NCBI GenBank assembly: GCA_050084515.1
Contig: CM114271.1
Span: 28,334,001-28,398,000, forward strand
Direction of reading: 5' to 3'
Origin: Blasia pusilla
Lineage: Eukaryota
DNA length: 64,000 nt
Shown: piece after piece, positions 1-41,698 of the stretch
How positions within the stretch are numbered: position 1 is the stretch's first letter
How the letters are laid out: every line of letters starts with the position of its first letter
Position numbers and translations under genes: made by a program
The notes under the pieces: generated by a model
Databases searched by the model: none
Seen by the model: only the letters and a program-made list of their open reading frames with translations
Told to the model about the DNA's origin: nothing

Positions 1-2779
1 AGGGAGTAGACTTTGTACGCCACACTTGGATTCCAACCCGAGATTCACTTCGTGTGAGTCTCGGTTAGGGCCTCATGGATGTCCATTGGACAGTTGGAAC
101 CGCCACGCGCAAAACGTTGTTTGAGGGTCTTGAACCGATTAGAAAGTCTGTCCCAAGTCTTTTGAGACTTGCCCGTGTTGTAAACCGCGAAACAAGGAAG
201 GTTGAGCTTGATGAGAGACCAAGACAAGAACTCAGAAAGTAAGTCCGCTGCTTGATCCAAGAACCGACTGAACAAAGTGTGTGTTTGGATGCAGATCAAC
301 GTTGAGAGCGTGACGAACTGAACGTACACTTCTGCAAAAACAAGATTAACGGTCAATGAGAGTAGGCGCACGATAATCACCAACACTTAACGACTATGGC
401 ACTCCATCAAAGGCAAAGGTACTACAAAATTAAAACTCCATCTATAACCTAAACCCATTATCGAAAGTGGATGCAACTGTGGAGTTGGAGCATTAAACGA
501 TGCTCGGACTCAATCACACACCATGCATCTGGCAACAAACTGATGAACATCAGTCTGCATGTCTCGCCACCAATACTGAATCTAGAGCAAGATGTACGTC
601 CACTTCACTCCAAAATGACCCAACTCCTCTTGGGCATGACGCATCAAACGTGCTCTCTGCGAAGGATGAGGCACTACACGCACTCTACCATCCTCCCACA
701 CCCGCAATACATATGTCCCCTCCCATCGAAACCGTCCGGCTCATTGTAGGATCTGATACCGCTCTCTAGCACCCGCTGTGCTCACAACGCTGCGAGTACC
801 CAAGTACTCCAAGACTACTTTGTCGTCGTGAACATCTCGGCCACTTATCGTCTCCTCACCGGCCTCTAGATCTAAGGATTCTCCATCAGACCTTGCCGTC
901 GAAGTCTCCGCAATCTAGCTCTCCACAGCCAACAAGCCCAAATAGGCTGACGGATGCCATCATAGTACCAACTCCTCATCACTGTCACCATGCCAACGAG
1001 CTCCAATTGCATCTCGTTGACTATGGCATGGGTTATGGCTCAAACCGTTTGCATCTTGGTTCAGCATCCCTGGTCTATGCACCACTAGGAAGTCATACTC
1101 TTGCAACAAAAGAGCACCTTGCAAGCTTCCCTGTAAGCTTGTCAGACTCCATCAACCACTTAAGTGGCTGATGATCAATAATGATGGTAAGGGGATTTCC
1201 GCATAGATAACATCTGATATGTGCGACAGCCCACACTGCAACCAAGCACTCACCCTAATACGAGCTATACTTCGCCTCTATAGCGTTGTTCAAGCGACTC
1301 GTGAGCCACCACAAACTCTCTACCATCATCGGCATACTAGGTAAGCACGGCTTCAAGCCCCAACATGCTCCAATCGGTATGAAAGTGGAAAGGACGTCCC
1401 CTGAACGGTCTCTTCAATATGGGTGCGGACGTCAATCTGTCCTTGAGCATCTGAAATGCTCATCCCCCTAGTGCCACTCCTGATCCACCTTGGTCAACAA
1501 GGTCAGTGGCTTTGCAATCGAGCTGAAACCCTTGATGTACTGTCGATAGAAGTTCACCAATCTCATGAATGCACAAACTCGACTCACATCTGTAGGGCAT
1601 GGAATGTGTGAAATAGCCTCTACCTTCGTTTGTTGCACACCAAGGCCACATGGGTATATCGTATGACCAAAGTACTCAATCTGGTCGTAAAAGAACTTGC
1701 ACTTGCCTAGATGTAGCTTCAACCCATGTAATTGCAATTGTCAAAATATCTCCTCTAGGTGTCGCTCATGCTCCTCAACCATGGCGCTAAAGACTACAAT
1801 GTCATCAATATAACACCTAGAAAAATCTAGACCTGCCAAGATCCTACCAATGACCCTATGAAACTCAGCCGGGGCGTTATTTAACCCAAATGGTAAGAAC
1901 CTCCACTGGTACAAACAATCCTTCTCGTGAGGATCGATGCCCCAAAATGCCGTCTTCTGCCTCTCCTCCAATCTGATAGGCAGCTGATGGAATCCGACTC
2001 GCAAATCCAATGAATTGAAGACCTTTGCATGCCAAATCGCGTCAAAGATCTCCTCATGAGTGGGCATGACATACCTATTGCACTTTGTCTGCCGATTGAT
2101 AGGTTGGTAATCTCCACACATCCACCTATCCGTCCAGTTGCCATGCACATCCTTCTTGGCGTGCATGATAGTGGCAGATTCATACTCTACATGCGACATC
2201 TCCACTACTCCTGCTCCAACCAAATCGTGGCTCCTACTCTAAATCAGAGCCCTCTCCATGTGATTGTATCTGTAGGGTCTTCGGAAGATTAGCATGTCAC
2301 TTGACAACTCAATGCGGATCCCTTGACCCTTCTACGTACCCAAATCATGCATACTAAATGCAAAATAGCTCCTTTAACTCCAAAGGAACTGGTGTATCCG
2401 GCGTCGCTCTCCTCCTGTCAACTTGGGGCCCATATCTGGCTCCGAAGTCTCCATCGTGACTACAATAGGACTCTCCTATGCGGATTTCGGTGGTTGCTAT
2501 GGTGCAACCCCGTCTTGGAAAACAAAACTTGATTGCTCCTCTTCAACCAACTGCAAAATTGAATCTCCATGTGTAGTACCCGGGACCACGTTGGATGTTC
2601 TGGCTACCATCTCATGGCATACATGCAGTCCACGGGTGTCTCTCTTGATCACCCTTGGTGTGTTGATCTCCTCGGGTCTCGCCCCGAGCCACTACCTCAA
2701 CCGTCTCGGTAGGCATGGGGCTCACCAACGCAACTGCTGTGATCTGTCCCATCCTCAAACGACGATGCTCAAAAACTCC

Positions 2780-3745
2780 TAAGCTGAAACTCCATGTCAA
2801 GCAGTTCAAGTCCATCCCAACATATCGCGTGACCCAAGATATGACGTCGTGATGCCTCTGATAGTGATGGTATTGCTGTCACTCCTATAGGGAATCCCAT
2901 CGCTCCCTCTCGCTCATCGATGTTGGGCTCCACCAACCTCTATACTTGGTCATCCCAAACCAAGCCAGGTCCGGCCTCCTTGAATGCATAGGAAGCGGGA
3001 AAACTCACCATTGTGGAAAAGGTTGCCCGTGGCATGCCAATCCTGTTGACCACAGTCAACTGCGGTCGATCATCTAGCCTCATTGCCTGTGATCGACAGC
3101 ACGGACCCAATATAGAATCCATCGACAAATTCGAGGGGTGCTCCACTCTCGCATATGCCCTCCGCAACACCTCGTGTGGTACCAAGTTGGCCCACCAAAG
3201 ATGTGGGCGATGTGCTCATGAATCCACACTCGCGGTATCCAACAAAACTGCCAAGCCGATCCATGCGCGCACATGATGTGAACTTGTCACCACATGGGAC
3301 CTCGAATCACCCAAAATCAGTACATTCTCCAGAATGTATGCTGGAGGACAAGACTGATGCTCTTGCAAGTGTCGCAAAATCCGCGTCATCTCCCAAAACA
3401 ACCTGGACCGAGAGTCAACTAATCCGCTACCCTGTCCAACACTCGACTGGCCCTGACATTGCCAACTAGCAATGACCAAGACTATGGTCCCTATCCGCTC
3501 CAAGTCCTACGTCCCCAACAATGAAATGTCCCTCGGTAGGGAACTCTGGTAACCTTGAATGACGGACCCAGACAATAAGTCAAGAAAATAGAGGCATAAT
3601 TGCGCCACATGGTGAAGTGAAGTGCGCCTCGCAACATCGTCAATCTCCACATACGGGTACTGCTGCACGCGCACTCCAGCCTGAAAAACAACAACTAAGC
3701 GAGTGTTGATCCCTCCAAAGAGATCCAACACCCGAATATCCTTCT
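2780..3745 (-). pseudogene. DNMT3-like C5 cytosine DNA methyltransferase domain inside the gypsy pol region
   Basis: Same-frame fragments: IRVLDLFGGI (motif I), YVEID (II), IVLVIASWQCQGQS (IV, catalytic Cys codon 3456-3458), DSRSRLFWE, AYILENV (VI, ENV 3321-3329), LLDTASVDS*AHRPHLWWANL (VIII), EREGAMGFP.GVT (IX), SRRHILGHA then frameshifted MDLNCL (X). Stops at 3507, 3216, 2940. Confidence 0.9.
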
Positions 3746-6700
3746 TTGGGATGCACCACACAATCGGGGTGGTGTCCAAAGGGGTCATAGCTGCACTCTT
3801 GGCAACATGGGGTTCCTCTGACCCATCACACTCTCGTGCAAATGTCTCACTCCACGCGGTCTGCACATGCTCAATGGCATTGCGTCGAAGCTCCTCAGTT
3901 GAGCCCCAAAGCGGCACCTCTCCTCCACAGACTGATGTGGCTACCATGACACTCCTCTCCATAGAAATTTCAGGAACAGGAGTATCCTCAGCATGGACAT
4001 GTTCCTCAATCAAATCACTACACCAAGTGATGGTATTGCTAAATGCTACTAAGGTAGCCATCTCTCCTGGCCGTTGCTCGATCACTGCATCTGTGAATCA
4101 AACGAGTAATGAGCTAAGGCACCCATCACGTGACTACCATCCTGGTCTATAACATGCTGACTCCTCCCAGTAATCTAGGGAAAACCCCATCGGATATAAT
4201 ATTTCTCCACCAACCAAAACGTCATAGGACTCTGTGTCAGTTACTATCGCCTCGGCTCGCACCACAGTCTCATTTGTAGGATGTCCCAAGCGAATCCTCA
4301 CCACGACCTCCTAGCGGGTGATATACTATGTGGTACTTGCTCCACCCAAGGATGTATGTATCCAGAATGGACAACGCTCCACATCGGCTCTCATCAAGCC
4401 CAATCCTTTGAATAACGCTTTCATCAACATTAGGGGTTACCCTCCTGAATCCAACAAGACGTGTTGCGGACTAAAAGCTCTACCTCTAGGACTCACCGAT
4501 TGGAAGACCTCTCCCCGATTAAGCAGCAACACAACACTAGGAGAAGCCATGGCATGCTCTATCACGGGTCTAGCGGGCATCTCCGCCATCCTAGCAGCCG
4601 TAGTCTACCATGAATCTGACGTGGACGGCCCCAGCATCCGTTCTGAGGGAAGGTCCATCATCTCCTCTGAACGTGATGTAGGAACTCCAACTCCACGCTC
4701 CCATAATGTAGCGGCCAGCTGGAACATCTCGGTGGGCGTACCTCCCAATGTCATAACATCATAAGCAGAAAATAGCGAAGCACGGTACACCATTGTGGCC
4801 GCCCCCAACATTGTACTCGACACATGCTCCTCCTAAGCATCAGCAATAGGAGTCGTCATACTCTTTTCTCCCATTTCCCCCGTGCCTGCACACCAATAAC
4901 ATCACCAACTCTCCGAGAACTCAGATCCGGACCCATCGATGGGATTCTCATCGCCTCACACAACGTAAAAGATTGAGGAAGTCTGGTGTATTTCCAAGCT
5001 TCCCCTCGTAGTGGATCCAACTCTGCGGTTGCTCCACGCTTCACAACTACAGAAGCCTCCATCTGGGCAACCCCGCACATCCAACCAGGATCCTCCATAT
5101 TGTGGATGCTCCATATGATGTCAATACCACGGATCCGGCATCGGGTAACCTCAATGTCGTAGCGGCAATCTGCTCATGTAGCTACTGTATTTGAGCAACC
5201 ATCCCAACCTCACACGCGGCATCTCCCTCGATGCGTCTAGGTGGTGGGATTCTACCTCCTCCACGGGTAGCTCAACCACCCTGTCGGGCAACTCCAGCTC
5301 CTCATCCCCCAACGGGACCACCTGGTGCACGATCTCTAGCTCCACCTAGACCGGATACTCACTCTAGTTCCCTCTCTGGCCCTTGGTCCGGACGTAACTC
5401 AAGATATGAACTGAAACACTTGGCGCATGTGTGACCATACCTCTAACAATAGTCACATTGATAACCTCCTAGTGCAGCACCATCTCCTCCTCTATGCTGA
5501 GGCACCCGTCCATGACCCTGACGAGTGCAAACACGATGATGATGGGCTCCACCATATGACCAACAAGTAATTGTAGGCGGCTGCTTCTGAGCCATATATG
5601 AAGGCGCAGATCTCTATGGCATAACCTCTTGGTATCCTCCCTGAGCTCGTGGTGCCACAGTCAACCTACTTCAGAGTCCATGTTATTGCACTGTAGACAA
5701 TCGTGATTGCTCTCGCCCATAACCTATGGTGGCTACGCTCTCCTCCACCATGTTGCGCTCAACGTTCTCAATGGTCCTAAAAACATCTCTCAACGTAGGG
5801 GAGGTATTCATAAGGAGCACTCCCTCCCGAACCTATATCGAGCATTGCGTACCATGATTGGATAGCCTGAGCCTCTATCATCCCTGAGTGACGTTGATCA
5901 ACCAATGCAAGGGAGTGTAAGCCTCACGCAAACTCTCACTCGGGCGCCTCTGGCAGTCGTGGATGCTCCGCAACTTCTCCATCCATACCCCCTGGTAGCT
6001 CGCCCTCAACTCAACGAAGAACTCAACCACATGGTTGAACTTGGGACGAACTCGACTAGACGGTGCAACTGCTCTTGTGCACTGACCCCTCCTAAAACAT
6101 CTTTAGTGGAAGAGGAAGTAGCCTCTCCTGACTCCTCCTCCTCATCTGGGAATGGCTCCGTCCATGACACATAGTGTGGGTCTTAGTAGAGTCGCCATGC
6201 CTCAATCTCCTAGGCATATTTGTGGAAGAACTCATGATAATCGTCCATGGATCCCCCCTCTAAATGCTGGAACATACCTTTTCATGTTGTGAACGGGTTG
6301 AACGCTCTAGATTTCCTAGCCCGTTATGAGTCACACCAACTCCTAGAATCCGCAATGAAGTCGTGTAGCTCTATAGTGCCTTCAGCACCCGAAAACCTAC
6401 GCGGTCCTCTATCCCGGTCGTCCATCTCGTACGCCCAACTAGTAGGACCACTCAATGTGTACGGTGGATCACTAACACACTCCTCTACATGCTCTCCCTT
6501 GTTTGAAGACGACATAGAAGGAGATCGAGGTGGTCTCTCATGTGGAGCCCCTTGAAACCTCGCACCACTCCGGGTAAATCTTGCAGAGCTACTCTCAGGT
6601 CCACTACCTCGCCTCTCAAAATACCGAAAGGACACCGTGATGGCCCTTCTTCCCCTCTCATACGATCACTCTCAATCACTCAAACTAAATATGCGGCACT

Positions 6701-8158
6701 CAATCTACACTCTCTCATTGAGACGTGTGTTATGCGGCAATAAGCAACGTGGTCCGGCAAATCAATTGATCTATCGTCTCATCGACAAACCATCCTCAAC
6801 TCTTGACATCCCACATAGGTCTATGTCTCCTAAACCCATACATCATGCTCTCAGCATCAACATGAAACCCAATATCTCAAATAACTTCCCAATATCAGGA
6901 AAATCCCTCACACGTGTAGGGTAAGAGACTATAATGGATAACTTGACAATAACATCAATGTCGCTCCTCAGCAACTGCAAATCTTGACCCCAACTCGGTC
7001 GTGAAGATAACTCCCCCAATTAACAAGTTGTACGCTTCTCGAACTGATGCTACTCAAACCTCCTCGATGTGCGGTGCAAGTCCAGCAGTCTATTGCGGCA
7101 CTGGCGGCACAGAACAGTTACAAACAACACGACACTTGGAAATGGGGCGCGGCACTCGGCGGCATACCCTCCTCAATTAGAAATTCAAATGCTCTGCTCC
7201 TTAGTGAAGAAGCGGCTCCGTGATTGAGACGGTGCGGTGCGGCCACGAGCGACAATCGGCGGCGCGTTACGGCTATGGGCGTCACGACATGGTACTCAAT
7301 CATCGTAGAGCGGCTATCAATCACAACATAGCAACATCAAATGAAAACTCAAACACCATAACCCAAGATTACCTTCCATCACTGGTTGATGATGAGACTG
7401 CGATGACGGTGGCGGCCAAAACAAAGTACGTGGTGGCGGCGCAAGTTAGAGAATCATTGGTCGTCATGGAAGACCCTCCACTCCTTAATGGCGACAATGG
7501 CATCCAAGGGTGGACAACGGCCGAACGCAGCTCTAAGCAGCACTAGGCGATGGTGGTGGCTGACGATGAATGGTGGATGGTGGACCATTGGCGGTGACTA
7601 TGACGGCTGGTTTAGGGTTTGAACAATTTAACCCTAAAAATCTCTTAGCAATAAAAGTTTTTCAAGATTGATCATAACTTTTTGCTCGCAATCCAAATTA
7701 TGCACCGTCTATTGCACAACGTGCATAGCCTCACGATATACAACAATATCAAAAAATATTTTGAATTGGACATTCCAGCAAAAACTGACGGGGATTGTCG
7801 TAAAGCCCAACTCCTCTTTCTCCTACAGAAATTTTGGCAACGCTTCCGCGCTGATTTTTCCCGACGAAAATGTAAAACCTGTGAAAATAAAAATTAGCAA
7901 GCTACATGGTGCTCCCAAGAGCACCAACATGGGGAAATTTTCCCCCATACTCAATCCCTGTCAAAAATTGGGCAGCACTTTCGTGCGCCATTCTTCCATA
8001 CAAAAAATCGGCAAAGGAAACATAAAAAATGAGTGGCTCTAGCTCTGGTGACCACTCCCATAAACCGTTGAATGGGAAATACGATCCCCAACCTGCAAAA
8101 CCAGCGAGTGACTTGTGAGCTCCCCCATGAAGCTCTCTCACTCATCTCATTCTCTCTT

Positions 8159-8675
8159 TGTAAATCAAAATCGAATCTCTCTCACAACACCATAGTTCTC
8201 ACATGAGTGCACTCTCACAAGTCTCTCTCAATGTCAAACCAAACCTACTCTCCTAATAAGAGATTTGGATTACACTCACAAGGCAAGGGACCATAGCTCC
8301 ACCGCCTTATGCCAAGAGGTTCAACAAAGAGAGAATAAGCTATCAAACTCTCTCTCCTTGAGGTATACCCCTCCCCTCTCCCAAGTTCTCTCCATGGTAA
8401 CCTATGCTCCCAAGTCACCTCTTTGGATCTTAACCTGATGTAGGAGATCAAGGTCAATTACCAGAAATACAAAATTGATCATATACTCAAAATTGTACTT
8501 ACCTAACATAGTAAGTTCCTCAATATGGTTCCAAATGGGTCGAAACGAAGGGAGAACCTACTCTCTCAGGTTTCGCGCGGCATCAACAGGTCATCCTCGA
8601 CCTGTTGAGGCTCTCCTCTACTACTTGCGACGGCGCTCTACTAGATCTCACCAATCTATCCAAAAAGACATGATA
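8159..8675 (-). repeat. 5' LTR of gypsy copy 1 (~517 bp)
   Basis: Aligns by eye with 31901-32413 and partly with 41245-41698. Left end TGTAAA on +; right end ...GACATGATA is a decayed version of ...GACGTGACA. Confidence 0.8.
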
Positions 8676-11235
8676 ATTCAAACAACAATATATGGTCAAA
8701 CTCGCCAATAAGTCACAAGTCTAAATATATGGTATAAGAGAATTGGACATATGAATCTTCAAAAACTACAGAGTCTTTCATCATCTAATATAGTAATAGG
8801 ACTTCCTAAATTAGCGAGTCCTGCTACATTAGAGATATGTCCTCCTTGCCAATTTGGAAAACAAGCTAGATTTCCTTTTCCAAAGCAAGGTAGAAGAGCA
8901 TCCAAGATATTGGAGTTGATCCATAATGATGTGTGGATAACATCACAACATAGCCTTCGTGGTTGTGAGTACTTTGTTTCATTTATTGATGATTCTTTAG
9001 GTATATATGGGTATACTTTCTCAAAGCCAAGTTAGAGGTATTCTCAATGTTCAAAATATTCAGAGTTCTAGCAGAGAAGCAGACTGGAAAACATATTTTG
9101 AAATTGCGTTGTGATGGAGGAGGAGAGTCATCTATCTTAAAAAGTCTTCATAGGAAGTAAACCTGATTTTTCCCTCCTGAAAGTATTGGTTTTATTTATT
9201 ATGCTCTTGTTCCTTTTGAGAGACGTAAAAAATTAGACCCCAAATTTGAAAGATGTATATTCATTGGCTACGTTGATGGAACTAAGGGATATAAGTGCTA
9301 CATTCCATCATCTAGGCATCTTATTATTAGTCGTGATGTTATCTTTCATGAGCTAAAGTCATAGTATGCTCCATGTGAGCCTATTCTACCTCTAAACTCC
9401 TCTATTGAGGGGAAGAATATGATTGTAAACCAACAGATATTGTCGTCAAATTCCCCAAGACCTAGTGTAGGATTAGAAGAGGTCATAGATTCGCCAGTTA
9501 AATCTATGAGTCCATGGACGGAAAGAATACGTAATCAGTCTGTTGACACTAGTCAGAGCTCAAGTCAGGTGTTAGAGGCATCTACCTGTGAACAACAACT
9601 TTGTAGATCAAGTAGAGTCATACATCATATTCATAGATTTATAAATGAAGGTTTTCTTGTGACACATCATGCATATATGATGACTACCCTTCAAGAATAG
9701 GAGTCGAGTTATTTTGAAGAAGATGTAAGTAAAATCGAATGGATTGAAGCTATGAAGGAAGAGCTTGCTCCATTAAGACAGACATCAACAAACCTGGGAG
9801 CTGGTTGATATACCTTCCAGTAAGGAAGCTTTTGGTTGCAAATGGGTTTACAAAATCGAGCGCAATCAAAATGGTATAATTAACAGATACAAAGCAAGAT
9901 TGGTGGCTTAGAGCTATGCACAACAATATGACATCGATTATGAGGAAATATTTAGCCATGTTGCAAAGATGGCGACTATGAGAACAATGGTTGTAATTGG
10001 AGTAAGTAAGAAGTGGAGATTACATCACATGGACGTCAAGAATGCCTTCTTGAATGGAGATCTATATGAGGAGGTATATATGACTCAACCAACTGGATAT
10101 GAACATCCCGAGTTTCCATTTTGCGTATGCAAGTTGAAGAAAGCTCTGTACGGGCTCAAATAAGCTCAAAGAGCTTGGTATTTGAGCTTCCATAAATTGG
10201 CTCACTGTGGAAGCACCTCAAAAATCTCACCTTGATGTTGTGAGGAGGATTATGCGGTAAGTGAAATTCTCTATTCAATTTGAACCTTCTCAAAGTTTAC
10301 AATTATAGGGATTCACAAATGTTGATTGGGCAAGAAGCGTATCTGATCGACACTCCATATGTGGTTATTCGTTTACTTTGGGAAGCGTAGTTATAAGTTC
10401 GGCTTCGAAGAAGCAACCTACATTTGCTTTATCTTCAACAAAGGATGAATACAGAGGAGCAACCAATGCAATATGTGAGGCGGTGTGACTTCATCAATTA
10501 CTTGTTGAGATTGGTGTTAGTAACTTAGGACCTAGTGTAATATATGTAAACAATATTAGTAGCATCAAACTTGCTAGACCTTGTGTTTCATGCTTGTACA
10601 AAATATGTTGAGGTGCACTATCATTTTATCAGAGAGAAAGTGCTTGCAAGAGAAATTGTTCTTATGTATATAGGTATAGATCAACAAATTGATGACATCT
10701 TTACAAAGGCATTGTCTAGAGATAAGTTTGAGATGTTTAGAAATAATTTAGGCATTAGAGATATCGATATGAGCTTGAGGGGGAGTATTGAAGATTGAGT
10801 TACAATCAAGCTCATGAGACACGTGAACTGCTACATTTGGTACTCACACGAAGTAGGGAAGCTTAATCTTGTTTAGTTAGTTAAGCGCGATTATCTTAAC
10901 TAGGGTTAGTTAATCATAATTAGTCTAACTTGAAACTGTGGTTAAGATTAGGGTTAGCGTTGCTTGTACATACCCTATATAATTGAGAAGGGGACCAGCC
11001 TCCACTCATTCTCTCATTGCAAAATTTTGTTCTCCATAATGGTGTGTGAGAGCCGTTTCCCATGAGTTATGCATCTTTAGCAGCTTTCTACAGATATAGG
11101 TGTAAATAAGTATGTGTATGATCTCAATCGATATATATTGTGAGAAGAATTTGAATGAAGGCTTGGCTAGCATTACTTCTACAATGTTTGAGATATTGTG
11201 TTTTGTACCAAGACATAAAAAACCACCATATAACA
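8676..11235 (+). mobile_element. Ty1/copia LTR retrotransposon, decayed 3' part (GAG-pre-integrase, integrase, RT, RNase H, 3' LTR), interrupted upstream by the gypsy element
   Basis: WYKRIGHMN...CPPCQFGKQAR...LELIHNDVW (integrase); HHMDVKNAFLNGDLYEEVYMTQP, KLKKALYGLK (RT); KYVEVHYHFIREKV...QIDDIFTKAL (RNase H); PPT GAGGGGGAG at 10777-10785. Confidence 0.93.
10786..11235 (+). repeat. Putative copia 3' LTR
   Basis: Begins right after the PPT with TATTG (decayed TGTTG), contains TATA-like CCCTATATAA (~10973) and ends TAACA. Confidence 0.6.
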
Positions 11236-13407
11236 ATAGAAAATTTCTTTGGTAGTGTTTGTTGCTTTATGAATGTGTTCCAACATAGATATTATGCACA
11301 TGGATTATGCGAACGAAAATAGTTGGATGGCTTGCAACATTATATATGAAACCATACAATGTCCAAAGGGGGGAAGTTGCATTGGCAGATCTATGTTGAG
11401 CGATATATTGTTGCTTGCCTTTGGATATATGGACAACCATACAATTTCCTTATTATCAAGACATGTCTTGTGTGTCGGATTGAACATCATTGTGATTTGA
11501 TAGGATAAAGGTAATAATAGTTACAATGTAGTTTTTATGTCATCAATGTTGATAGAGAACAAGCATTTATGAGAGGTATGGATGTCTAAGATGAACTTCA
11601 CATCGCTTATTCCAACCAAATCAAATCTAGGAAATGGTGGCACTATCTCTTTTGGTTTGGCATATATATATATTGGTGTAACACATGAATGAATTTGATG
11701 ATGTATGTATTAGAAAAGTCATAGAACAAAACAAGATAAACACCAAAGATTTCGATAAGAGATAGCCTAGGTGGTAAGCTATCGTTAAAGAGAAAAAGCC
11801 ACACAAATGATGGATAACTTCTTCTTTCCACTATGGCTCAAAGCTTCCTAATAGATTCTTGTGTATTGAATGTTATGCAACGATTTTTTTTCTTGTCCAA
11901 ACTGCAACGAAATACGTTTGTGTAAAGGGCTCTGCTTCGGTGGTCTTAATGAGCAAATTGAGTGTTGTGCAAATGTTTTGAAGTCCTGTGGTGGTATTTG
12001 GGACTAACAAAGTGAATGGGGCACAAAAGCGGGTAATAACTTGGAATATTTTTAATTCCATGCAATTGTGAAAGTTCTTTTCCTATCACTTATGAAAGTT
12101 CTTTTCGAAGAGTGATAGGCTAACATTGAGATATATGGATCTACCTAGTGCAAAGTTTTGTATGCAATAATAAGGTGGAAAATCACTCCACTTCCTTCTC
12201 TCTCATTGTGTTGTTGTGATGTTCTCATGCTGGTTTTGAATGATGACACATCATTTCAACATTTATGCTATGATCGGGTTGTATGAATGCATTCATATTA
12301 TCGTTGAATGGGTAGGAAAGCATTTTGCATTCCCTTTGGAGGCTTGGTTTGGATTTGGTCACATCTCTTGAGTAACTAGTGACAATCTAATGGGTTTAAA
12401 TCCCAAAGGACTCAATAGGTTTGGATGTGGATAGAGGGAATCTATATTTTGGTCCCGGGAAAAGAATGGGTTATCCCGAAAACTGAATTATTGGCAATCT
12501 TCCAAAGCCAAAAGAAAAGAAAAGAAAGTCCAAAAATGATCCTAACCCCAAATGATGGAAAATGTTGATTGCATTCCCCATTGAAAAACAATTTCACTAG
12601 TATGCACATGAACTAGACATCTAGAAACTAGAGGGTGAAGATTAATTTTTGACGGTTGGATATGGAGCTATAAATAAAAGAAAACTCTCGGTTGCATAAA
12701 TGGCCGCAATAGCCCAAAAGATGTTGGTCCTTAGTGGTTAAAGGGTTGCATAACTTGCATCAGGTAGTGATAGGTGTCTAGTTGTGATGTGGCGGGGCAA
12801 GAAGAACGCGACTTTCTTCGGAAACCAGTTAGTTCCTCCTGTTCATTCGGTAGGGGTTTAGGGTTAGGGTTTTAACAAGAGGAGTACACTTTCCCACGAT
12901 GTAATTCGAATCGAGGAATGACGGAGCGCGAGGCGATGTCTCACAATTCGAACGGGCGCTCTGCGCAGTTGAATGCGGGACAGGTGTTGAGTTGAATTAC
13001 AGATGGCAGTTTTGACACACAGTTTGGAGCGGTGATCTTGATGCGGAGGAGGGATGGCGCACGGAAGTCTGCCCGAGTTCAAGATTTAGGACTCGGCGGG
13101 TTTTAGGGTTTAGGGTACTTGGGCCATTTTTCTTTACGTTTGCTGAAATGGATTTTTTGGGTGTGGTGGTTGACTGGAAGGAAGCCTTTGTATTTCCAAT
13201 CTGTTGAGGTCATGGGAACACTCTTGCGAAGACCTACTTCACTCATTGACGACCTAATACGGGAATGAGAAACGCGAGAATGTGTAGCTTTAGGAGTTGA
13301 AGTTCACCAAGACTGGTCGTCTTGGTTGTTTTTTAAGCTGCACAACAAAAACCAGATAAATGTTCAGTACTTGCTGAAATTGCTTCCGGAGAGCGTCTAC
13401 CGCCGCA

Positions 13408-27940: not shown

Positions 27941-30900
27941 ACCCAAGGATTTCTGTATCCGGAATGGACAACGCTCCACATCGGCTCTCGTCAAGCCCAA
28001 TCCTCTGAATGACGCTTTCCCCAACATCAGGGGTTGCGCTCCTGAATCCAACAAGACGCGTTGCGGACTAAAAGCTCTACCTCCAGGACTCACCAACTGG
28101 AAGACCTCTCCTTGGTTATCTAGAAACACCACACCAGGAGAAGCCATGGCATGCTCTATCGCGATTCTAGCGGGCATCTCCGCCATTCTAGCAGCCGTAG
28201 CCTGCCATGAATCTGACGTGGACGGTCCGAGCATCCGCTCCAAGGGCAGGTCCATCACCTCCTATGCAATCATCTCTGAACGTGATGCAGGAACTCCAAC
28301 TCTGCGCTCACATAGCGACGCGGCCAACCGAAAAGCCTTGGCGGGCGTACCTCCCAACGTCATAACATCGGAAGCAGAAAATAAAGGAGTGCGGTACACA
28401 ACGGTGGCCGCCCCCAACAATATGCTCGACACATGCCCCTCCTGAGCATCAACAATAGGAGTCATCACACTCGCTTCTCCTATCGCCCTCCGTGCCTGCA
28501 CACCAACAACATCACCAACTCTCAAGGAACTTTGACGAGGACCCATTGATGAGGTCCTCATCGCTTCGGACAATGTGAAAGACTGAGGAAGCCTAGTCTA
28601 TTTTCTGGCTTCCCTTCGCTGTGGATCCAACTCTGCGGCTGCTCCACGCGTCACAACTACGGCGGCCTCCATCTGGGCAACCCCGCACATCCAACCAGGA
28701 TTCTCCAGATGTCTAGCTGCTCCATATGATGTCGATGCCACGGATCCGGCATCGGGTAACCTCAATGCCATGGCAGCAATCTGCTCATGTAGCTGCTGTA
28801 TTTGAGCAGCCACCCCAGCCTCACGTCCGGCGTCTCCCTCGACGCGTCTAGGTGGTGGTAATCTACCTCCTCCACGAGCAGCTCCACCACCCTGTCCGGC
28901 AACTCTAGCTCCTCGTCCCCCAACGGGACCACCTGGTGCACGATCTCTAGCCCACACGGACCGACTACTAGCTCTGGTGCCCTCTCTGGCCCTCGGTCCG
29001 AACGTAACTCAGGATGTAAACTGAAACACCTGGCGCGTGTATGACCATACCTCTGACAAAAGTCACACTGATAACCTCCTGGTGCAGCACCATCTCCTCC
29101 TCCATGCTAAGGCATACGTTCATGACCTTGACGAGTGCAATGGCGCCGATGATGGGCTCCACCACATGACCAACAAGTAATAGTAGGCGGCCGTTGTTGA
29201 GCCGCATATGAAGGCGCAGGTCTTTGTGCCACGGGCTCTCGGTATCCTCCCTGAGCTCGTGGTGCCCGATTGACCTATCTCGAGTCACGTTCTTTGCAGG
29301 TGGTGCAGCCAATCGCGACTGCTCTCGCCCAGAACCCATGGTGGCTACGCTGTCCTCCGCCATGTTGGGCTCAATGTTCTCGGCGGTCCTAAAAACATCT
29401 CTCAACGTAGGGGAGGTGTTCATAAGAAGCACCCCCTCCCGCACCCGTGGCCGCAGGGTCTGGTCTAGCATCGCGTACCATGACTGGATAGCCTGAGCCT
29501 CTGTCACCCCCTGAGTGACGTTGATCAACCGGCGCAAGCGAGTGTAAGCCTCATGTAAACTCTCACCCGGGCGCCTCTGGAAGTTGTGGATGCTCCGCAA
29601 CTTTTCCGTCCGTACCCCTTGGTAGCTCGCCCTCAACTCAGCAAAGAACTCAACCACGGGGTTGAACCAGGGACGAACCCGACTAGACGGTGCAACTACT
29701 CTAGTGCGAGTGACCCCTCCTAAAACATCACTAGTGGAAGAGGAAGTAGCCTCTCCTGACTCCTCCTCTTCATCTAGGAACGGCTCCGTCCATGACACAT
29801 AGTGTGGATCATAGTAGATTAGCCATGCCTCAATCTCCTGGGCATATCTGTGGGAAAACTCATGGTAATCGTCCATGGGTGCCCCCTCTAAATGCTGGAA
29901 CATACCGTTCCATGCTGTAAACGGGTTGAACTCTCTAGAGTTCCTGGCCCGCTGGGAGTTGCACCAACTCCTAAACTATGCTATGAAATCGTGCAACTCA
30001 ATCGTACCTACTGCACCTGAAAACCTACGCGGTTCTCTACCCCGGTCGTCCATCTCGTACGCCCAACTGGTAGGACCACTCACAATGTGTGGCAATGTGC
30101 TAACAAATTCCTCTACACCCTCCCCCTCGTCTGACGATGACATAGAAGGAGGTCGAGGTGGTCCCTGAAGTGAAGACCCTCGGAACCTCATGCCACTCCG
30201 CGTAAAACCTCTAGAGCTACTCTCGGGTTCACCACCTCCCCTCTCAAAGTCCCGAACGGACGCCGTGATGACCCTCTTGCCTTTCTCACTCGATCACTCT
30301 TGCCTCGCAAGTAATCCCTCAATCACTCATCCCAAACATGCGGCACTCGATCTACACTCTCTCTCCCCGAGACATGTAACGTGCGACAATAAGCGGCGTG
30401 GTGCGGCAAATCGACCAGACTATCATCTCATCGACAATCTACCCTCAACTCTGGACATCCCATACAGGTCTATGTCCCCTAAATCACATACATAAATGAT
30501 GCTCTTAGCATCCACACACCCAATATCCCCAAATAAACTACCAAAATCCCAGAATCCCTCACATGTGCAGGATAAAGGACCAGAATGGATAACCTGAACA
30601 CATGTCGATGTCGCTCCTCAGCAACTGCGAATCTCGATCCCAACTTGGTTGTGGAGACAACTCCTCCAATCAGCAAGTCATACTCCTCCCGTACTGACGT
30701 TGCTCAAAACTCCTCGATAGACGGTGCAGTTCCAGTGGAACGGTGCGGCGTTGCAGGCGGCACGGAACGACTACGAACGGCACGGCCCTCGATGATGGGA
30801 TGCGGCACTCGGCGGCATACCCTCCTCAATCAACAATAAACCCACACTCTGCTCCACAATGCCGGAGCGGCTCCGCGATCAAGACGGTGCGGTGCGGCCA

Positions 30901-32413
30901 AGAGCGGCACAGCGCGGCAATCGGCGGCGCGTTGCGGCTACGGGCATCACGGCACGGTACCTGATCGTCGTTGAGCGGCTACCAATCACAACATAGCAGC
31001 AGGAAATCAAAACTCAAACACTATAATAGGAGGTCATATGCCATCACAAGTTGATGACGGTGGCGGCCAAAACAAAGTATGTGATGGCGACGCAAGTCCA
31101 AGAATCAACAACCGTTGTGGAAGACCCTCCACTCCGTAACGGTGGCAATGGCAACCAAGGGTGGACACGGACGGTGGACCATTGATGGTGACGGTTGACC
31201 GTTGATGATGACAGACGAACGGTGATGGTGACGGTTGACCGTTGATAGTGATGGTTGACCATCGACGGTGAAAGTGGACCGTTGATGGTTGACGGTGACT
31301 ATGACGGCGATGGCCGCCGCCGGTGTGGCGGGTGGTTTAGGGTTTGCACAATTTAGCCCTAAAAATCGCCTAGCAATGGCAGTTTTGCAAGATTGACCAG
31401 AACTTTTTGCTCGCAACTCCAAATTGCGCAATGTTTATTGCATACCGTGCAAAGCTTCATGATCTACGCCAGCATGAAAAAATATTTGGAATCGGACATT
31501 CCAGTAAAAACTGACAGGGACTGTCGTAAAGCCCAATGTCTCTTTCTTCTACCCAACATTTGGCAGCGCTTCCGCGTTGATTCCTCTCAACAAAAATATA
31601 AAACCTGTAAAAATGCAAATCAGCAAGCGACATGGTGCTCCCGAAAGCACCAGCATGGGGCAACCCACCCTCATACTCAATCCCTATCAGAAATTGGGCA
31701 AGCGCTTCCGCGCGCCACTCTTCCACACGAAAAATCGGCAAATGCAAGGAACAATCCAGGCAACCCTTGCTCCGATGAGCACTCCCATGAGCCGTTGAAC
31801 GGGGAACACGGTCCCCAACCTGCAAAAATAGCGAGTGACCAGCGAGCTCCCCCATGAAGCTCTCTCACTCTCTCATTCTCGCATTCTCTCATTCTCTCTT
31901 TGTAAAGTAAGATCCAATCTCTCTCTACACAATCTCACACCATAGCTCTCAAAGGTGTGCACTCTCTCTCATGTCAAACCAAACCCACTCTCCTAATGAG
32001 AGGCTTGGGTTACACTCATAAGGCAAGGGACCATAGCTCCGCCGCCTCATGCCAAGAGGTTCAACAAAGAGAGAATGAGCTCTCAAACTCTCTCTCCTTG
32101 GGTACCCCTCCCCTCTCCCAAGCTCTCCCCATGGTAACATATTCTCCCAAGTCACCTCCTTGGCTCTTGACCTGATGTAAGAGGTCAAGGGCCACTTACC
32201 AAAAATAGAAAGTCGATCATATACTCAAAATAGTACTTACCTAAAATAGTAAGTTCCTAAATATGGCTCCAAATGAGCCAAAACGAAGAGAAAACCTGCT
32301 CTCTCAGGTTTCCCGGGGCCTCAACAAGTCACCCTCGACCTCCTAGGCCTGTCCTCCACTACTCTTGAAGACGCTCTACTAGATCTCACCGATCTATCCT
32401 AAAGGACGTGACA
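27941..32413 (-). mobile_element. Ty3/gypsy copy 2 (same family as copy 1): 5' LTR, long leader, gag, protease; truncated at the protease
   Basis: Colinear with ~4345-8675. Gag ORF 28968-29903, two zinc knuckles (CWSCGGAHHRRHC, CDFCQRYGHTRARC), protease RVLLDSGAQPLMLG. Similarity stops at ~27941. Confidence 0.93.
31901..32413 (-). repeat. 5' LTR of gypsy copy 2 (513 bp, TG...CA)
   Basis: Sense strand begins TGTCACGT and ends ACTTTACA; homologous to 8159-8675. Confidence 0.82.
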
Positions 32414-41244: not shown

Positions 41245-41698
41245 AATCTCACACCAAGCTCTCCATGGTGTGCACTCTCTCTCATGTCAAACCAAACCCA
41301 CTCTCCTAATGAGAGGCTTGGGTTACACAGACAAGGCAAGGAAGATCATAGCTCCGCCGCCTCATGCCAAGAGGTTCAACAAAGAGAGAATGAGCTCTCT
41401 TGGAGATATACCCCCTTCCCTCTCCCAAGTCCTCTCCACGGTAACCTATGCTCGCACGTCATCTCCTTGGCTCTTGACCTACGGTAACGGGTCAAGGGCC
41501 ACTTCCCAAAGTGGAAAGTCAGCTATACTCCAAATGGTAACTTACTCAAAATAGTAAGTTCCTAAATATGGATCCAAATGAGCCGAAACGAAGGGGAAAC
41601 TTGCTCTCTCAGGTTACCCGTGGCCTCTTGAGACTGTCCTCCTGTATCTTTGAAGGCTTTCTACAAGATCTCACCAATCTATCGTAAAATTTGTGACA
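41245..41698 (-). repeat. Solo or partial LTR related to the DNMT-gypsy family
   Basis: Matches 31930-32413 (TGTCAAACCAAACCCACTCTCCTAATGAGAGG...GTGACA); diverges leftwards of ~41245. Confidence 0.85.

What the first reader, a model, noticed from the sequence alone, without database searches (positions are those of the whole stretch)
2780..3745. Ty3/gypsy retrotransposon carrying its own DNMT3-like cytosine methyltransferase between protease and RT
Seen in sequence: ORFs 3507-4085, 3216-3503 and 2940-3185 share one frame with each other and with the protease LLDSG. They are broken only by single stop codons, so the domain was part of the polyprotein (gag-PR-DNMT-RT-RH-INT). All C5-MTase motifs are present in order: VLDLFGGI (I), ASWQCQG (IV, Cys kept), ILENV (VI), AHRPHLWWANL (VIII), EREGAMGFP (IX), RRHILGHA (X). 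Established knowledge: AHR..(Y/L)(F/W)W.NL and E.ER..GFP..T...R...LG are DNMT3-family signatures. The unpermuted motif order excludes plant DRM. DNMT-bearing retrotransposons have been described in dinoflagellates and the charophyte Klebsormidium; I do not know of a characterised land-plant family. Inference: the enzyme may be packaged in the particle and methylate nascent cDNA or new insertions (self-marking or camouflage), or may have exchanged DNMT3 genes with the host. This copy is a pseudogene.
Basis: partly seen in the sequence, partly recalled or inferred. Interest (0 to 1): 0.93.

Follow-up and report, generated by a model that had tools for sequence, protein, structure and literature searches.

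The report
Retrotransposon carrying a DNMT3-type DNA methyltransferase
This is a dead copy of a very abundant, transcribed plant jumping gene whose own protein includes a DNA-methylating enzyme of the kind cells normally use to silence such elements; the kind was known from an alga, and here it turns up in a liverwort-like land plant.

Summary
On the minus strand of window 1-8670 lies a decayed Ty3/gypsy element: LTR, gag, protease, DNMT, RT, RNase H, integrase. It runs off the window start. The segment 2615-4097 encodes an unpermuted C5 cytosine methyltransferase. Pfam finds PF00145. Sequence, profile and fold searches of PDB all rank DNMT3A/B/C first.

The DNMT is not a one-off insertion:
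- Whole-genome reads cover it as deeply as gag-protease, about one copy-equivalent per Mb.
- RNA reads cover it on one strand.
- Relatives at 43-58% identity occur in Marchantia, Calypogeia and Sphagnum.
- All 35 metagenome contigs of 9 kb or more place the DNMT between protease and RT where flanks allow.
- Codon-level comparison indicates long purifying selection.

This copy is dead. It has three stops, at least two frameshifts, and PC changed to QC in motif IV.

New here: a conserved in-frame stop (TAG CAA CCA, 2499-2491) separates gag-protease-DNMT from RT-RNase H-integrase. It is a stop in 49 of 52 related copies. So the DNMT ends the major Gag-level product, and RT-integrase probably needs readthrough.

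The kind is known from Klebsormidium (KnitGypsy-Dnmt3, 2018). My searches found no paper describing it in land plants. What the enzyme does is still inference.

The parts
8057..8670 (-). 5' LTR of the element (boundaries approximate; the 3' LTR lies beyond the window start)
   Evidence: The minus strand starts TG at 8670. WGS read depth steps from about 1305 (7801-8100) to about 3335 (8101-8400). 1024 reads run on into unlike sequence behind 8673. The stretch is shared with the second copy and a third fragment.
8042..8054 (-). Primer-binding-site-like TGGTCACCAGAGC just inside the LTR
   Evidence: Read directly. The likeness to the initiator-Met-tRNA primer site of plant LTR elements is recalled and was not tested.
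5416..6407 (-). gag remains, spread over two frames, with a CCHC zinc knuckle (CDYC-stop-RYGHTCAKC, 5416-5457)
   Evidence: GPRRFSGAEGTIEL at 6366-6407 aligns with the N-terminus of Marchantia P0025.
4098..4604 (-). Aspartic protease (VLLDSGG at 4440-4460), same frame as the DNMT
   Evidence: It aligns with the protease region of Marchantia proteins.
3753..4097 (-). Linker between protease and DNMT (about 115 residues), conserved in the liverwort-type clade; mostly disordered, with one long helix
   Evidence: Relatives match from query residue 7-13 onward. In the AF2 model pLDDT is below 50 for residues 1-58 and there is a helix at 67-90. No Pfam family matches it.
2772..3752 (-). DNMT3-type C5 cytosine methyltransferase core, motifs I-X in normal order, with three in-frame stops (3507-3509 TAG, 3216-3218 TGA, 2940-2942 TAG)
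2615..2815 (-). C-terminal continuation of the DNMT product in a shifted frame (MDLNCLTW... to ...HPW); frameshift at 2816-2825
   Evidence: BLASTP E 3e-15 against P0025 residues 1184-1240; coordinates.
2491..2499 (-). Conserved in-frame stop with its downstream context, TAG CAA CCA, at the DNMT/RT junction
   Evidence: The homologous codon is a stop in 49 of 52 related loci. L046 has TAG CAG TTA.
1657..2421 (-). Reverse transcriptase (YIDD 1801-1812)
   Evidence: PF00078 E 8.2e-23; coordinates.
1111..1459 (-). RNase H, in two frames
   Evidence: PF17917 E 1.5e-11 and PF17919 E 8.1e-8.
504..665 (-). Integrase zinc-binding (H2C2) domain; the integrase core was not detected and the element runs off the window
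   Evidence: PF17921 E 3.5e-10. 1312 reads diverge from this copy before position 376.
27941..32411 (-). Second, 5'-only copy of the same family (LTR, leader, gag, part of protease), cut inside the protease
   Evidence: blastn gives 81% identity to 4344-8673. It says nothing about the DNMT.
41276..41689 (-). Third fragment, matching the outer LTR part
   Evidence: 75% identity to 8222-8666.

Best explanation
Window 1-8670 (minus strand) is an old, mutationally decayed copy of a high-copy Ty3/gypsy LTR retrotransposon family. The genome is a land plant whose nearest sequenced relatives are liverworts. The family's coding region includes a DNMT3-type, unpermuted C5 cytosine methyltransferase domain directly after the protease. 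SHOWN: the domain is real and DNMT3-like by sequence, profile and fold. It belongs to the family and not just to this copy. The family is abundant and transcribed. The same gag-PR-DNMT-RT-RH-INT order recurs in Marchantia gene models and in many metagenome contigs. DNMT-bearing relatives also occur in Calypogeia, Sphagnum and a Closterium alga. The DNMT reading frame evolved under purifying selection. A stop codon at the DNMT/RT boundary is conserved. INFERRED: the main translation product is Gag-PR-DNMT, made at Gag levels. RT-RH-INT is made as a minor extension by readthrough of the UAG, whose CAR-YYN downstream context resembles the leaky-stop signal of tobacco mosaic virus. After protease processing the DNMT uses SAM to methylate cytosines in DNA. 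The most plausible substrate is the element's own newly made cDNA or new insertions; action on host DNA in trans is possible. The copy in the window makes nothing.
For: Domain identity.
- PF00145 E 3.5e-7.
- PDB phmmer hits with E below 0.1 are DNMT3A/B/C only.
- A 37-sequence profile scores DNMT3A 6e-28 (101 bits), DNMT3C/B 75-93 bits, DRM 53-64, M.HhaI 35, DNMT2 33.
- The AF2 model has pLDDT 81.5. In Foldseek every chain shown down to rank 50 is DNMT3A/B/C, and against the isolated catalytic-domain chains TM is about 0.8 when normalised by the target.

Family-wide presence.
- About 1% of WGS run X12 was read, and reads at least 80% alike were laid. Mean depth is 1831 over the DNMT bins (2701-4200), 1868 over gag-PR (4201-6600) and 2857 over RT.
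- 145,929 of 12,434,590 records laid on the 9 kb.

Transcription.
- In three RNA runs the DNMT bins average 47-61 in one direction against 1-4 in the other.

Relatives.
- 22 near-length and 16 longer proteins at 36-58% identity come from Marchantia polymorpha, Calypogeia fissa, Sphagnum and unnamed sources.
- Pfam shows DNMT followed by RVT_1 and RNase H in P0031 and P0037, and CCHC-PR-DNMT-RT-RH-INT in the 2188-aa P0056.
- Of 35 metagenome loci of 9 kb or more, 19 show all six parts in order, 14 are cut by contig ends but consistent, and 2 are rearranged.
- L056 has a 342-bp LTR pair at 92% identity.

Trees.
- The window sits in a 13-row clade with Calypogeia and Marchantia, support 100 in FastTree and 99 SH-aLRT in IQ-TREE.

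Selection.
- Window against 37 loci: pN 0.32, pS 0.71, differences by codon position 31/23/47%.
- Among the loci, dN/dS is 0.81 for close pairs and 0.20 for the 36 deep pairs.

Intact relative.
- L046 has one stop in a 2417-codon frame and carries AGWPCQG, ENV, AHRPR, ERERAMGF.

Junction stop.
- Window: TAG CAA CCA.
- In 52 loci the codon is TAG 29, TAA 20, TAC 2, GAG 1. The next six bases are CAACCC in 49 of 52.
- L046: TAG CAG TTA.
- Marchantia P0025, P0026, P0030 and Calypogeia P0003 end 92-94 residues after the DNMT match, which is the same site.
Against: - No intact copy was shown in the window's own genome, because no assembly is held.
- The read table was cut before the stop positions, so I cannot say what other copies carry there.
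- Most reads are under 90% alike (119,617 of 145,929). Depth and RNA therefore describe the family, and some reads over RT may come from other gypsy families.
- Most related copies are also dead: only 4 of 80 loci have no stop in the matched frame.
- Enzyme activity is untested. The one Gypsy-DNMT3 domain tested in yeast, from K. nitens, gave no methylation, which the authors called inconclusive (PMC5890265, passages).
- Readthrough is inferred from conservation and context only. In the metagenome family the third downstream codon is CCC, not the YYA of the recalled consensus, and P0056 has no stop.
- The sense orientation of the RNA rests on the tool's statement that in most stranded libraries the first mate reads the opposite strand.
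- dS is near saturation in the deep comparisons, so the 0.2 values are rough.
Confidence: 0.85

Rival explanations
1. The family's DNMT domain is no longer an enzyme. It is kept as a non-catalytic module, like DNMT3L, that binds or modulates host DNMT3, chromatin or nucleic acid.
For: The K. nitens Gypsy-DNMT3 domain produced no methylation in yeast (PMC5890265, passages). The window copy itself has QC in place of PC.
Against: Across the 12 rows of A1, the Cys and following QG of motif IV, ENV of motif VI and FGG of motif I are invariant. The Pro of the PC pair and AH of motif VIII are nearly invariant. In the 37-row A2 the Cys, EN and AH..R..W.N stay at 90% or more. L046 has a complete set. 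DNMT3L-type proteins have lost these residues (recalled). The Gln in the window fits the general decay of this dead copy.
Confidence: 0.12
2. The conserved stop is real but is not read through. RT-RH-INT would be expressed another way (a spliced or subgenomic RNA, or reinitiation). Alternatively most copies are non-autonomous gag-PR-DNMT elements that borrow RT and integrase from stop-less relatives.
For: Readthrough was not measured. The downstream context CAA CCC departs from the recalled CAR-YYA consensus at the last base. A stop-less 2188-aa relative exists (P0056). RNA depth is about twice as high over RT-INT as over DNMT-gag, which a 3' subgenomic RNA could produce; cross-mapping from other gypsy families could produce it too.
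Against: ORF2 stays in the same frame as ORF1 in 7 of 13 loci printed. In L046 an open 1047-codon RT-RH-INT-PHD frame directly abuts the stop. The two codons after the stop are as conserved as the stop itself (50 of 52 CAA). L046 has the exact UAG CAR YYA form. In-frame UAG readthrough is the known gag-pol strategy of murine leukaemia virus (PMC5009743, passages).
Confidence: 0.25
3. The DNMT segment is a one-off: a host DNMT3 gene fragment captured by, or a gene interrupted by, this single element copy, or an assembly chimera.
For: Only one DNMT-bearing copy lies in the window. The second copy in the window is cut before the position where the DNMT would be.
Against: Read depth over the DNMT equals that over gag-PR. 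The same order is seen in 33 of 35 long related loci and in Marchantia gene models. The DNMT is in frame with the protease. Host plant DNMT3 carries a C-terminal DUF3444 (PMC6453930, passages), and Pfam finds no such domain here.
Confidence: 0.01

Closest known systems
KnitGypsy-Dnmt3 of the charophyte Klebsormidium nitens (de Mendoza et al. 2018, PMC5890265; passages read)
   Same: A Gypsy-type retrotransposon with an unpermuted DNMT3-type domain inside its coding region. Key catalytic residues are conserved and copies show purifying selection (Ka/Ks below 0.2 there; about 0.2 for deep pairs here). It is a streptophyte host.
   Different: The host here is a land plant and the copy number is far higher; the paper says K. 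nitens has few copies. The paper's text says the K. nitens repeats are arranged as in DIRS elements, whereas the relative L056 has an ordinary LTR pair. The domain order of the K. nitens element is given only in a figure I could not see. No K. nitens sequence was in my trees, so common descent is untested. The conserved DNMT/RT stop is not mentioned in the passages I read.
SymbioDIRS-Dnmt3 of Symbiodinium dinoflagellates (same paper)
   Same: A retrotransposon-encoded DNMT3-type domain. Two copies methylated CG de novo in yeast, and this is the basis for the cDNA self-methylation idea.
   Different: It is a DIRS element with a tyrosine recombinase, not a gypsy element with a DDE integrase. The host lineage is unrelated and the capture was independent.
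Host DNMT3 enzymes: animal DNMT3A/B/C and plant DNMT3 (PpDNMT3b; PMC6453930, passages)
   Same: Best sequence, profile and fold matches. The motif order is the same, as are the DNMT3-style motif VIII (AHR..W.NL) and motifs IX-X.
   Different: There is no PWWP, ADD or DUF3444 domain. The domain is fused behind a retroviral-type protease. Identity to DNMT3A is only about 20% in the structural alignment. The region between motifs VIII and IX appears longer.
Leaky in-frame UAG between gag and pol of murine leukaemia virus (PMC5009743, passages) and the UAG CAR YYA signal of tobacco mosaic virus (recalled: Skuzeski et al. 1991)
   Same: A single in-frame UAG separates an abundant upstream product from a polymerase-containing extension. 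The downstream codons are CAA CCA (window) and CAG TTA (L046).
   Different: The stop lies after protease and DNMT, not after gag, so protease and methyltransferase would be made at Gag level. No downstream RNA structure was examined and readthrough is untested.
A second lineage found here, in the order RT-RH-DNMT-INT-PHD (for example 'pol' of Scenedesmus sp. PABB004, P0077)
   Same: Gypsy-type polyproteins with a related DNMT3-type domain.
   Different: The DNMT sits between RNase H and integrase. In the IQ-TREE subset all 19 such rows form one side of a branch, support 99, away from the window's lineage.

Membership tests
Ty3/gypsy LTR retrotransposon | Domain order protease - RT - RNase H - integrase, with integrase last | tested here: met
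   On the minus strand: PR DSG 4440-4460, RVT_1, RT_RNaseH and Integrase_H2C2 in that order. The DNMT is inserted between PR and RT.
Ty3/gypsy LTR retrotransposon | Two long terminal repeats in direct orientation flanking the coding region, with a target-site duplication | tested here: inconclusive
   Only the 5' LTR (about 8057-8670) is inside the window; the 3' end lies beyond position 1. The relative L056 has a 342-bp pair at 92% identity around gag...INT. No pair of 150 nt or more was found in L023, L033, L015, nor one of 60 nt or more in L046. Target-site duplication was not examined.
Ty3/gypsy LTR retrotransposon | gag with a CCHC zinc knuckle; integrase with a DDE core | tested here: inconclusive
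   A CCHC knuckle is present but broken by a stop (5416-5457). The integrase H2C2 is found but not the rve core; it is off the window or decayed. L046 has both rve and H2C2.
C5 cytosine DNA methyltransferase (Pfam PF00145) | HMM score above the curated cut-off | tested here: met
   30.4 bits against a cut-off of 22, read through three stops with X. L046 scores 51.1 bits.
C5 cytosine DNA methyltransferase (Pfam PF00145) | Catalytic residues: FxGxG (motif I), Pro-Cys (IV), Glu-Asn-Val (VI) | tested here: not met
   The window copy has FGGI and ENV, but Gln-Cys in place of Pro-Cys, plus three stops and a frameshift. This copy is therefore not a working member. Relatives have all three motifs.
DNMT3 family | Catalytic domain closer to DNMT3 than to DNMT1/MET1, CMT, DRM, DNMT2 or bacterial enzymes | tested here: met
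   Profile against PDB: DNMT3A 101 bits, DRM 64, HhaI 35, DNMT2 33. No DNMT1 or CMT chain scored at E 0.01 or better. In Foldseek every chain shown down to rank 50 is DNMT3A/B/C. No tree with named host DNMT3, DNMT1 and DRM sequences was built.
DNMT3 family | Motifs in the unpermuted order I-X (DRM has them rearranged) | tested here: met
   Order I, IV, VI, VIII, IX, X along the frame. It is collinear with DNMT3A.
DNMT3 family | Family-typical reader domains (PWWP and ADD in animals; DUF3444 in plants) | tested here: not met
   None was found by Pfam in the window frames or in relatives. The relation is to the catalytic domain only. A PHD finger follows the integrase in L046.
Gypsy-DNMT3 retrotransposons (KnitGypsy-Dnmt3 type) | A DNMT3-type domain encoded inside the coding region of a gypsy element, in many copies, under purifying selection | tested here: met
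Gypsy-DNMT3 retrotransposons (KnitGypsy-Dnmt3 type) | Common descent with the K. nitens elements (one capture event) | not tested
The nearest named alga in the window's lineage is Closterium sp. NIES-68 (P0064).

The most novel reading that the evidence does not exclude
Bryophytes, including the model liverwort Marchantia polymorpha, carry an ancient and still transcribed lineage of LTR retrotransposons. Their principal translation product would be a Gag-protease-DNMT3 fusion, with RT-RNase H-integrase(-PHD) made only by readthrough of a conserved UAG. The element would thus deliver an active de novo cytosine methyltransferase at capsid-level stoichiometry. That enzyme would mark its own cDNA or new insertions, and at about one copy per Mb it could add measurably to the host methylome.
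Probability: 0.35. Interest if true: 0.85.

Novelty: new member of a known kind. Interest (0 to 1): 0.62.

Why it matters
DNA methylation is the main weapon plants use against transposons, so a transposon that carries the weapon itself is a paradox. The published cases are in algae that are hard to manipulate. There the question of what the enzyme does for the element was left open, and the one gypsy-borne enzyme tested gave no activity.

This work adds three things:
- The same kind of element is abundant and transcribed in a land plant.
- Close relatives sit in annotated gene models of Marchantia polymorpha, which has transformation, CRISPR and methylome resources. This would make the question directly testable.
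- The conserved stop codon puts the DNMT at the end of the Gag-level product. That suggests a concrete mechanism: a high dose, possibly delivered with the particle. It also gives a simple reporter test.

It also warns annotators that 'DNMT3-like genes' counted in bryophyte genomes may be retrotransposon ORFs.

Tried and rejected
- No whole genome is held for this window, so there could be no census of copies in the source genome.
- tblastn of the DNMT against the window found only the one copy.
- The second copy at 27941-32411 is cut inside the protease and says nothing about the DNMT.
- The look-up of sequencing runs: no RNA holder listed. Six rows hold small shares (0.04-0.14) of the sampled words. 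I did not lay those runs and draw nothing from them.
- Read laying showed only the 40 best-supported base differences, none inside 2700-4100. It therefore could not tell what other copies carry at the three stops.
- The first IQ-TREE run on 113 rows returned no answer. I used FastTree on all 113 and IQ-TREE LG+G4 on a hand-picked 47 of the 113.
- CpG observed/expected is 0.66-0.71 in the element against 0.64 for the whole window, so CpG depletion does not single the element out. The excess of T and A in this copy relative to reads and to copy 2 does fit C-to-T decay.
- Direct-repeat search found no LTR pair in L046, L023, L033 or L015.
- Named hits could not be pushed further: of 30 representatives looked up, only Scenedesmus sp. 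PABB004 and Closterium sp. NIES-68 carry organism names.
- I did not identify K. nitens or host DNMT3 sequences, so the 'exchange with host DNMT3' idea was not tested.
- Literature searches found no paper describing DNMT-bearing retrotransposons in land plants.
- The search for readthrough in plant LTR elements gave nothing specific.
The supplements of PMC5890265 and PMC12344493 may list further streptophyte elements.
Full report
**What is there.** The minus strand of window 1-8670 carries the remains of an LTR retrotransposon. Reading downward from 8670, the parts are:
- an LTR of about 610 bp, starting TG at 8670, followed by a primer-binding-site-like TGGTCACCAGAGC at 8054-8042;
- a leader of about 1.6 kb;
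- gag (GPRRFSGAEGTIEL 6366-6407; CCHC knuckle 5416-5457);
- protease (VLLDSGG 4440-4460);
- a linker of about 115 residues;
- a cytosine methyltransferase domain (motif I at 3708-3731 to motif X at 2826-2849);
- RT (YIDD 1801-1812), RNase H, and the integrase zinc-binding domain (504-665).

The element runs off the window start, so its 3' LTR is not seen. Pfam finds RVT_1 (8.2e-23), RT_RNaseH (1.5e-11), RT_RNaseH_2, Integrase_H2C2 (3.5e-10) and DNA_methylase in the three minus-strand frames.

**Checking the observation.** They share one frame with each other and with the protease. The stops are TAG, TGA and TAG at 3507-3509, 3216-3218 and 2940-2942. Read through with X at the stops, the 514-residue translation hits PF00145 at E 3.5e-7, 30.4 bits against a cut-off of 22. 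In PDB, hits with E below 0.1 are DNMT3A, 3B and 3C only, the best at 1.1e-8. The alignment runs from motif I to motif VIII, and a second stretch covers motifs IX-X. All six quoted motifs are there, in the unpermuted order.

**Corrections to the observation.**
- The Pro of the catalytic Pro-Cys pair is Gln in this copy. Relatives have GWPCQG.
- After motif X the homology jumps to another frame: 2615-2878 matches Marchantia P0025 residues 1184-1240 at E 3e-15. So there is a frameshift at 2816-2825.
- RT is in a third frame.
- gag is also split over frames and holds stops.

The copy is thoroughly dead.

**Is it DNMT3?** A profile of 37 relatives searched against PDB gives DNMT3A 6e-28 (101 bits), DNMT3C and 3B 75-93 bits, tobacco and Arabidopsis DRM 53-64 bits, M.HhaI 35 and DNMT2 33. 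No DNMT1 or chromomethylase chain scores at E 0.01 or better. An AlphaFold2 model built on a 48-row alignment has mean pLDDT 81.5 and pTM 0.75, with the core (about residues 101-441) mostly above 90. Residues 1-58 are disordered and 67-90 form one helix. In Foldseek against PDB every chain shown down to rank 50 is DNMT3A, 3B or 3C. Against the isolated catalytic-domain chains the TM-score is about 0.8 when normalised by the target, at about 20% identity. No PWWP, ADD or DUF3444 domain is present. The last of these is what host plant DNMT3 carries (PMC6453930, passages). So only the catalytic domain is DNMT3-like.

**Is the DNMT part of the family or a one-off?** The window holds only this one DNMT copy. 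A second copy of the element (27941-32411, 81% identical to 4344-8673) is cut inside the protease, so the window alone cannot answer. Reads can.

I laid about 1% of a whole-genome run of the same (coded) species on window 1-9000, accepting reads at least 80% alike. Both directions summed, the mean depths are:

| Region | Bins | Mean depth |
|---|---|---|
| DNMT | 2701-4200 | 1831 (range 1518-2242) |
| gag-protease | 4201-6600 | 1868 (range 1539-2238) |
| RT | 1501-2400 | 2857 |
| neighbouring Copia-like piece | 8701-9000 | 501 |

The DNMT is therefore as abundant as the rest of the element. In all, 145,929 of 12,434,590 records read (1.2%) lie on these 9 kb. The DNMT bins alone take about 0.14% of the letters read, which is roughly one copy-equivalent per Mb of genome. 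This is my arithmetic and does not depend on genome size.

Most reads are under 90% alike (119,617 of 145,929). Where the window differs from the reads, it has A for G at 326 places and T for C at 343, against 162 and 138 the other way. The same bias appears against copy 2. This copy is an old member with an excess of C-to-T type decay. All three DNMT stops are TAG or TGA and align with Gln, Arg or similar residues in relatives.

**Transcription.** In three RNA-seq runs of the species, depth over the DNMT bins averages 47-61 with the first mate on the + strand and 1-4 on the other. By the tool's note on stranded libraries this means RNA of the minus strand, which is the sense strand of the element. 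Almost all these reads are under 95% alike, so they come from other family members and not from this locus.

**Relatives elsewhere.** The word-indexed protein search found 22 proteins of similar length and 16 longer ones at 36-58% identity. Named ones come from Marchantia polymorpha (at least 15 gene models), Calypogeia fissa and three Sphagnum species. Pfam shows DNMT followed by RVT_1 and RNase H in two Marchantia models. The exhaustive representative search found 1098 clusters at E 0.001 or better and 111 at 1e-30 or better, many of 1000-3400 residues.

I located protease, RT, RNase H, integrase and PHD pieces by phmmer in 201 proteins:

| Group | Count |
|---|---|
| PR-DNMT(-RT-RH-INT) type | 28 |
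| RT-RH-DNMT-INT(-PHD) type | 82 |
| DNMT alone (mostly short fragments) | 89 |
| Other | 2 |

P0056 (2188 aa) is a continuous CCHC-PR-DNMT-RT-RH-INT protein. Named algae are Closterium sp. NIES-68 in the first group and Scenedesmus sp. PABB004 in the second.

In a FastTree of 113 DNMT cores the window sits in a 13-row clade with Calypogeia and eight Marchantia rows (support 100). That clade lies inside a larger group holding all 14 rows of the first architecture. An IQ-TREE (LG+G4) of 47 rows that I picked from the 113 gives 99 for the 13-row clade, and puts all 19 rows of the second architecture on one side of a branch with support 99.

**Host organism.** An intact single-exon chloroplast-type EF-Tu gene with an N-terminal extension lies at 34135-35514. 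Its best matches are Calypogeia fissa 84%, Marchantia paleacea 83%, Diphasiastrum 82% and Riccia 82%. So the host is a land plant, nearest to liverworts among what the database holds.

**DNA-level relatives and selection.** A scan of metagenome contigs returned 80 loci. Among the 35 of 9 kb or more:
- 19 show gag, PR, DNMT, RT, RH and INT in that order;
- 14 are cut by contig ends but consistent;
- 2 are rearranged or nested.

L056 has a 342-bp direct repeat pair (92% identical) around the coding region, as an LTR element should. Most copies are dead: only 4 of 80 have no stop in the matched frame.

Nei-Gojobori comparison of 37 near-full DNMT segments gives a median dN/dS of 0.81 for the closest pairs, which fits neutral decay after insertion. 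It falls to 0.53 at dS 0.2-0.4 and to 0.20 for the 36 deep pairs (L003 against the rest). There, third positions take 47% of the differences. The window against the same 37 loci gives pN 0.32, pS 0.71 and codon-position shares of 31/23/47%. Stop-bearing codons were skipped and dS is near saturation, so the figures are rough, but the direction is clear. The frame was maintained by selection over most of the divergence.

One natural relative, L046, has a single stop in a 2417-codon frame. Its first part carries protease and a DNMT with AGWPCQG, ENV, AHRPR and ERERAMGF. Its second part carries RT, RNase H, integrase (H2C2 and rve) and a PHD finger.

**A conserved stop between DNMT and RT.** The single stop of L046 is not an accident. 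Of the 13 loci printed in the DNMT frame, 8 are readable across the junction (the others have shifted frames). In 7 of these 8, all from the metagenome family, a stop lies at the same place ('...PKVFA*QPMA...'), and the eighth, L046, has its own single stop at the corresponding junction; other stops are scattered. Aligning the junction in all loci that cover it gives TAG in 29, TAA in 20, TAC in 2 and GAG in 1 of 52. CAA follows in 50 of 52, and the next six bases are CAACCC in 49 of 52.

The window has the homologous site, '...GVAP*QPP...', TAG CAA CCA at 2499-2491. L046, a subfamily only 41% identical in protein, has TAG CAG TTA. Marchantia models P0025, P0026 and P0030 end 92 residues after the DNMT match and Calypogeia P0003 ends 94 after it. 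This is the same site, counted from the shared HPW motif.

So in this lineage ORF1 is gag-PR-DNMT, and RT-RH-INT follows in the same frame behind a UAG. In-frame UAG readthrough makes Gag-Pol in murine leukaemia virus (PMC5009743, passages). I infer readthrough but did not test it. The CCC third codon in the metagenome family and the stop-less P0056 count against a strict reading.

**How it most likely works.** Shown: the anatomy, the family-wide presence, transcription, selection and the conserved stop. Inferred:
- The element's RNA is translated mainly into Gag-PR-DNMT, and at a low rate through the UAG into Gag-PR-DNMT-RT-RH-INT.
- The protease releases the parts.
- The DNMT, produced in Gag-like amounts and probably present in or near the particle, methylates cytosines of the new cDNA or of fresh insertions, or acts in trans on host DNA.

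The cDNA self-methylation idea is that of de Mendoza et al. for Symbiodinium elements, whose DNMT3 domains methylated CG in yeast. Their K. nitens gypsy domain gave no signal, which they called inconclusive (PMC5890265, passages). Nothing in my data says which sequence context is methylated, or whether methylation helps the element (camouflage, or gene-body-like marking) or restrains it.

**Comparison with what is known, and novelty.** The kind is known. KnitGypsy-Dnmt3 in Klebsormidium nitens is a gypsy-type element with an unpermuted DNMT3 domain under purifying selection (PMC5890265, passages). A 2026 preprint refers to 'streptophytes (Gypsy-DNMT3)' (10.64898/2026.05.21.726589, passages). 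[quoted passage not shown]

Seven full-text searches found no description of such elements in land plants. Nor did passages from three Marchantia, Physcomitrium and land-plant papers. The library lacks most subscription journals and supplements are closed, so this is not proof of absence.

I file it as a new member of a known kind, with three additions:
- land-plant hosts, including a model species;
- very high copy number with transcription;
- the conserved stop that makes the DNMT the C-terminal domain of the Gag-level product.

Whether it shares a single capture event with the K. nitens elements is untested.

**Verdict.** The locus itself is a pseudogene; the value lies in the family it reveals.

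Noticed in passing
L046:5086-8226; proteins P0054, P0058, P0070: A PHD finger follows the integrase in the intact relative L046 and in most proteins of the RT-RH-DNMT-INT-PHD lineage. It sits where chromoviruses carry a chromodomain, so it may direct integration to particular chromatin. The window's own integrase C-terminus is off the window.
   Followed up: partly
proteins P0054-P0190: A second, larger lineage of gypsy-type polyproteins has the DNMT3-type domain between RNase H and integrase (82 of 201 proteins examined). It includes 'pol' of the chlorophyte Scenedesmus sp. PABB004; most members are from unnamed metagenome sources. It separates cleanly from the window's lineage in the DNMT tree.
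   Followed up: partly
window 3059-3499: A joint that skips 439 bases inside the DNMT, with 21 other letters between, is seen only in RNA runs (1, 4 and 8 reads). It is absent from DNA reads at depth of about 1500-1900. On the sense strand the skipped part starts GC and ends AG. It may be an expressed deletion variant or a processed transcript; unexplained.
   Followed up: no
window 8712-10800, + strand: A Copia-like element fragment abuts the outer end of the gypsy LTR. Its ORFs look like a gag-pre-integrase region, integrase and RT. This was judged by eye and not scanned.
   Followed up: no
window 34135-35514, + strand: An intact single-ORF chloroplast-type EF-Tu gene with an N-terminal extension. 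Its best matches are liverworts at 82-84%. I used it only to place the host.
   Followed up: partly
window 13378-15084 (+) and 13625-13921: A 568-residue open frame rich in FG, S, T and A (nucleoporin-like by eye) contains eight 27-nt tandem units.
   Followed up: no
window 48366-49097 and 49605-50009, + strand: Two open frames hold CCCH-type zinc-finger-like strings (C..C..C..H), probably exons of one gene. Not scanned.
   Followed up: no
protein P0024 (Mp_7g09570, 612 aa): A Marchantia gene model matches the element's linker plus part of the DNMT (residues 64-333, 40% identity) and ends in a PHD finger. It could be a decayed element, a chimeric model or a domesticated gene.
   Followed up: no
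window 376, 1115-1121, 8231: More than 1000 reads at each of these places run on into a shared different sequence. So this copy has local rearrangements or replacements relative to most of the family, including in the integrase region below 376.
   Followed up: no
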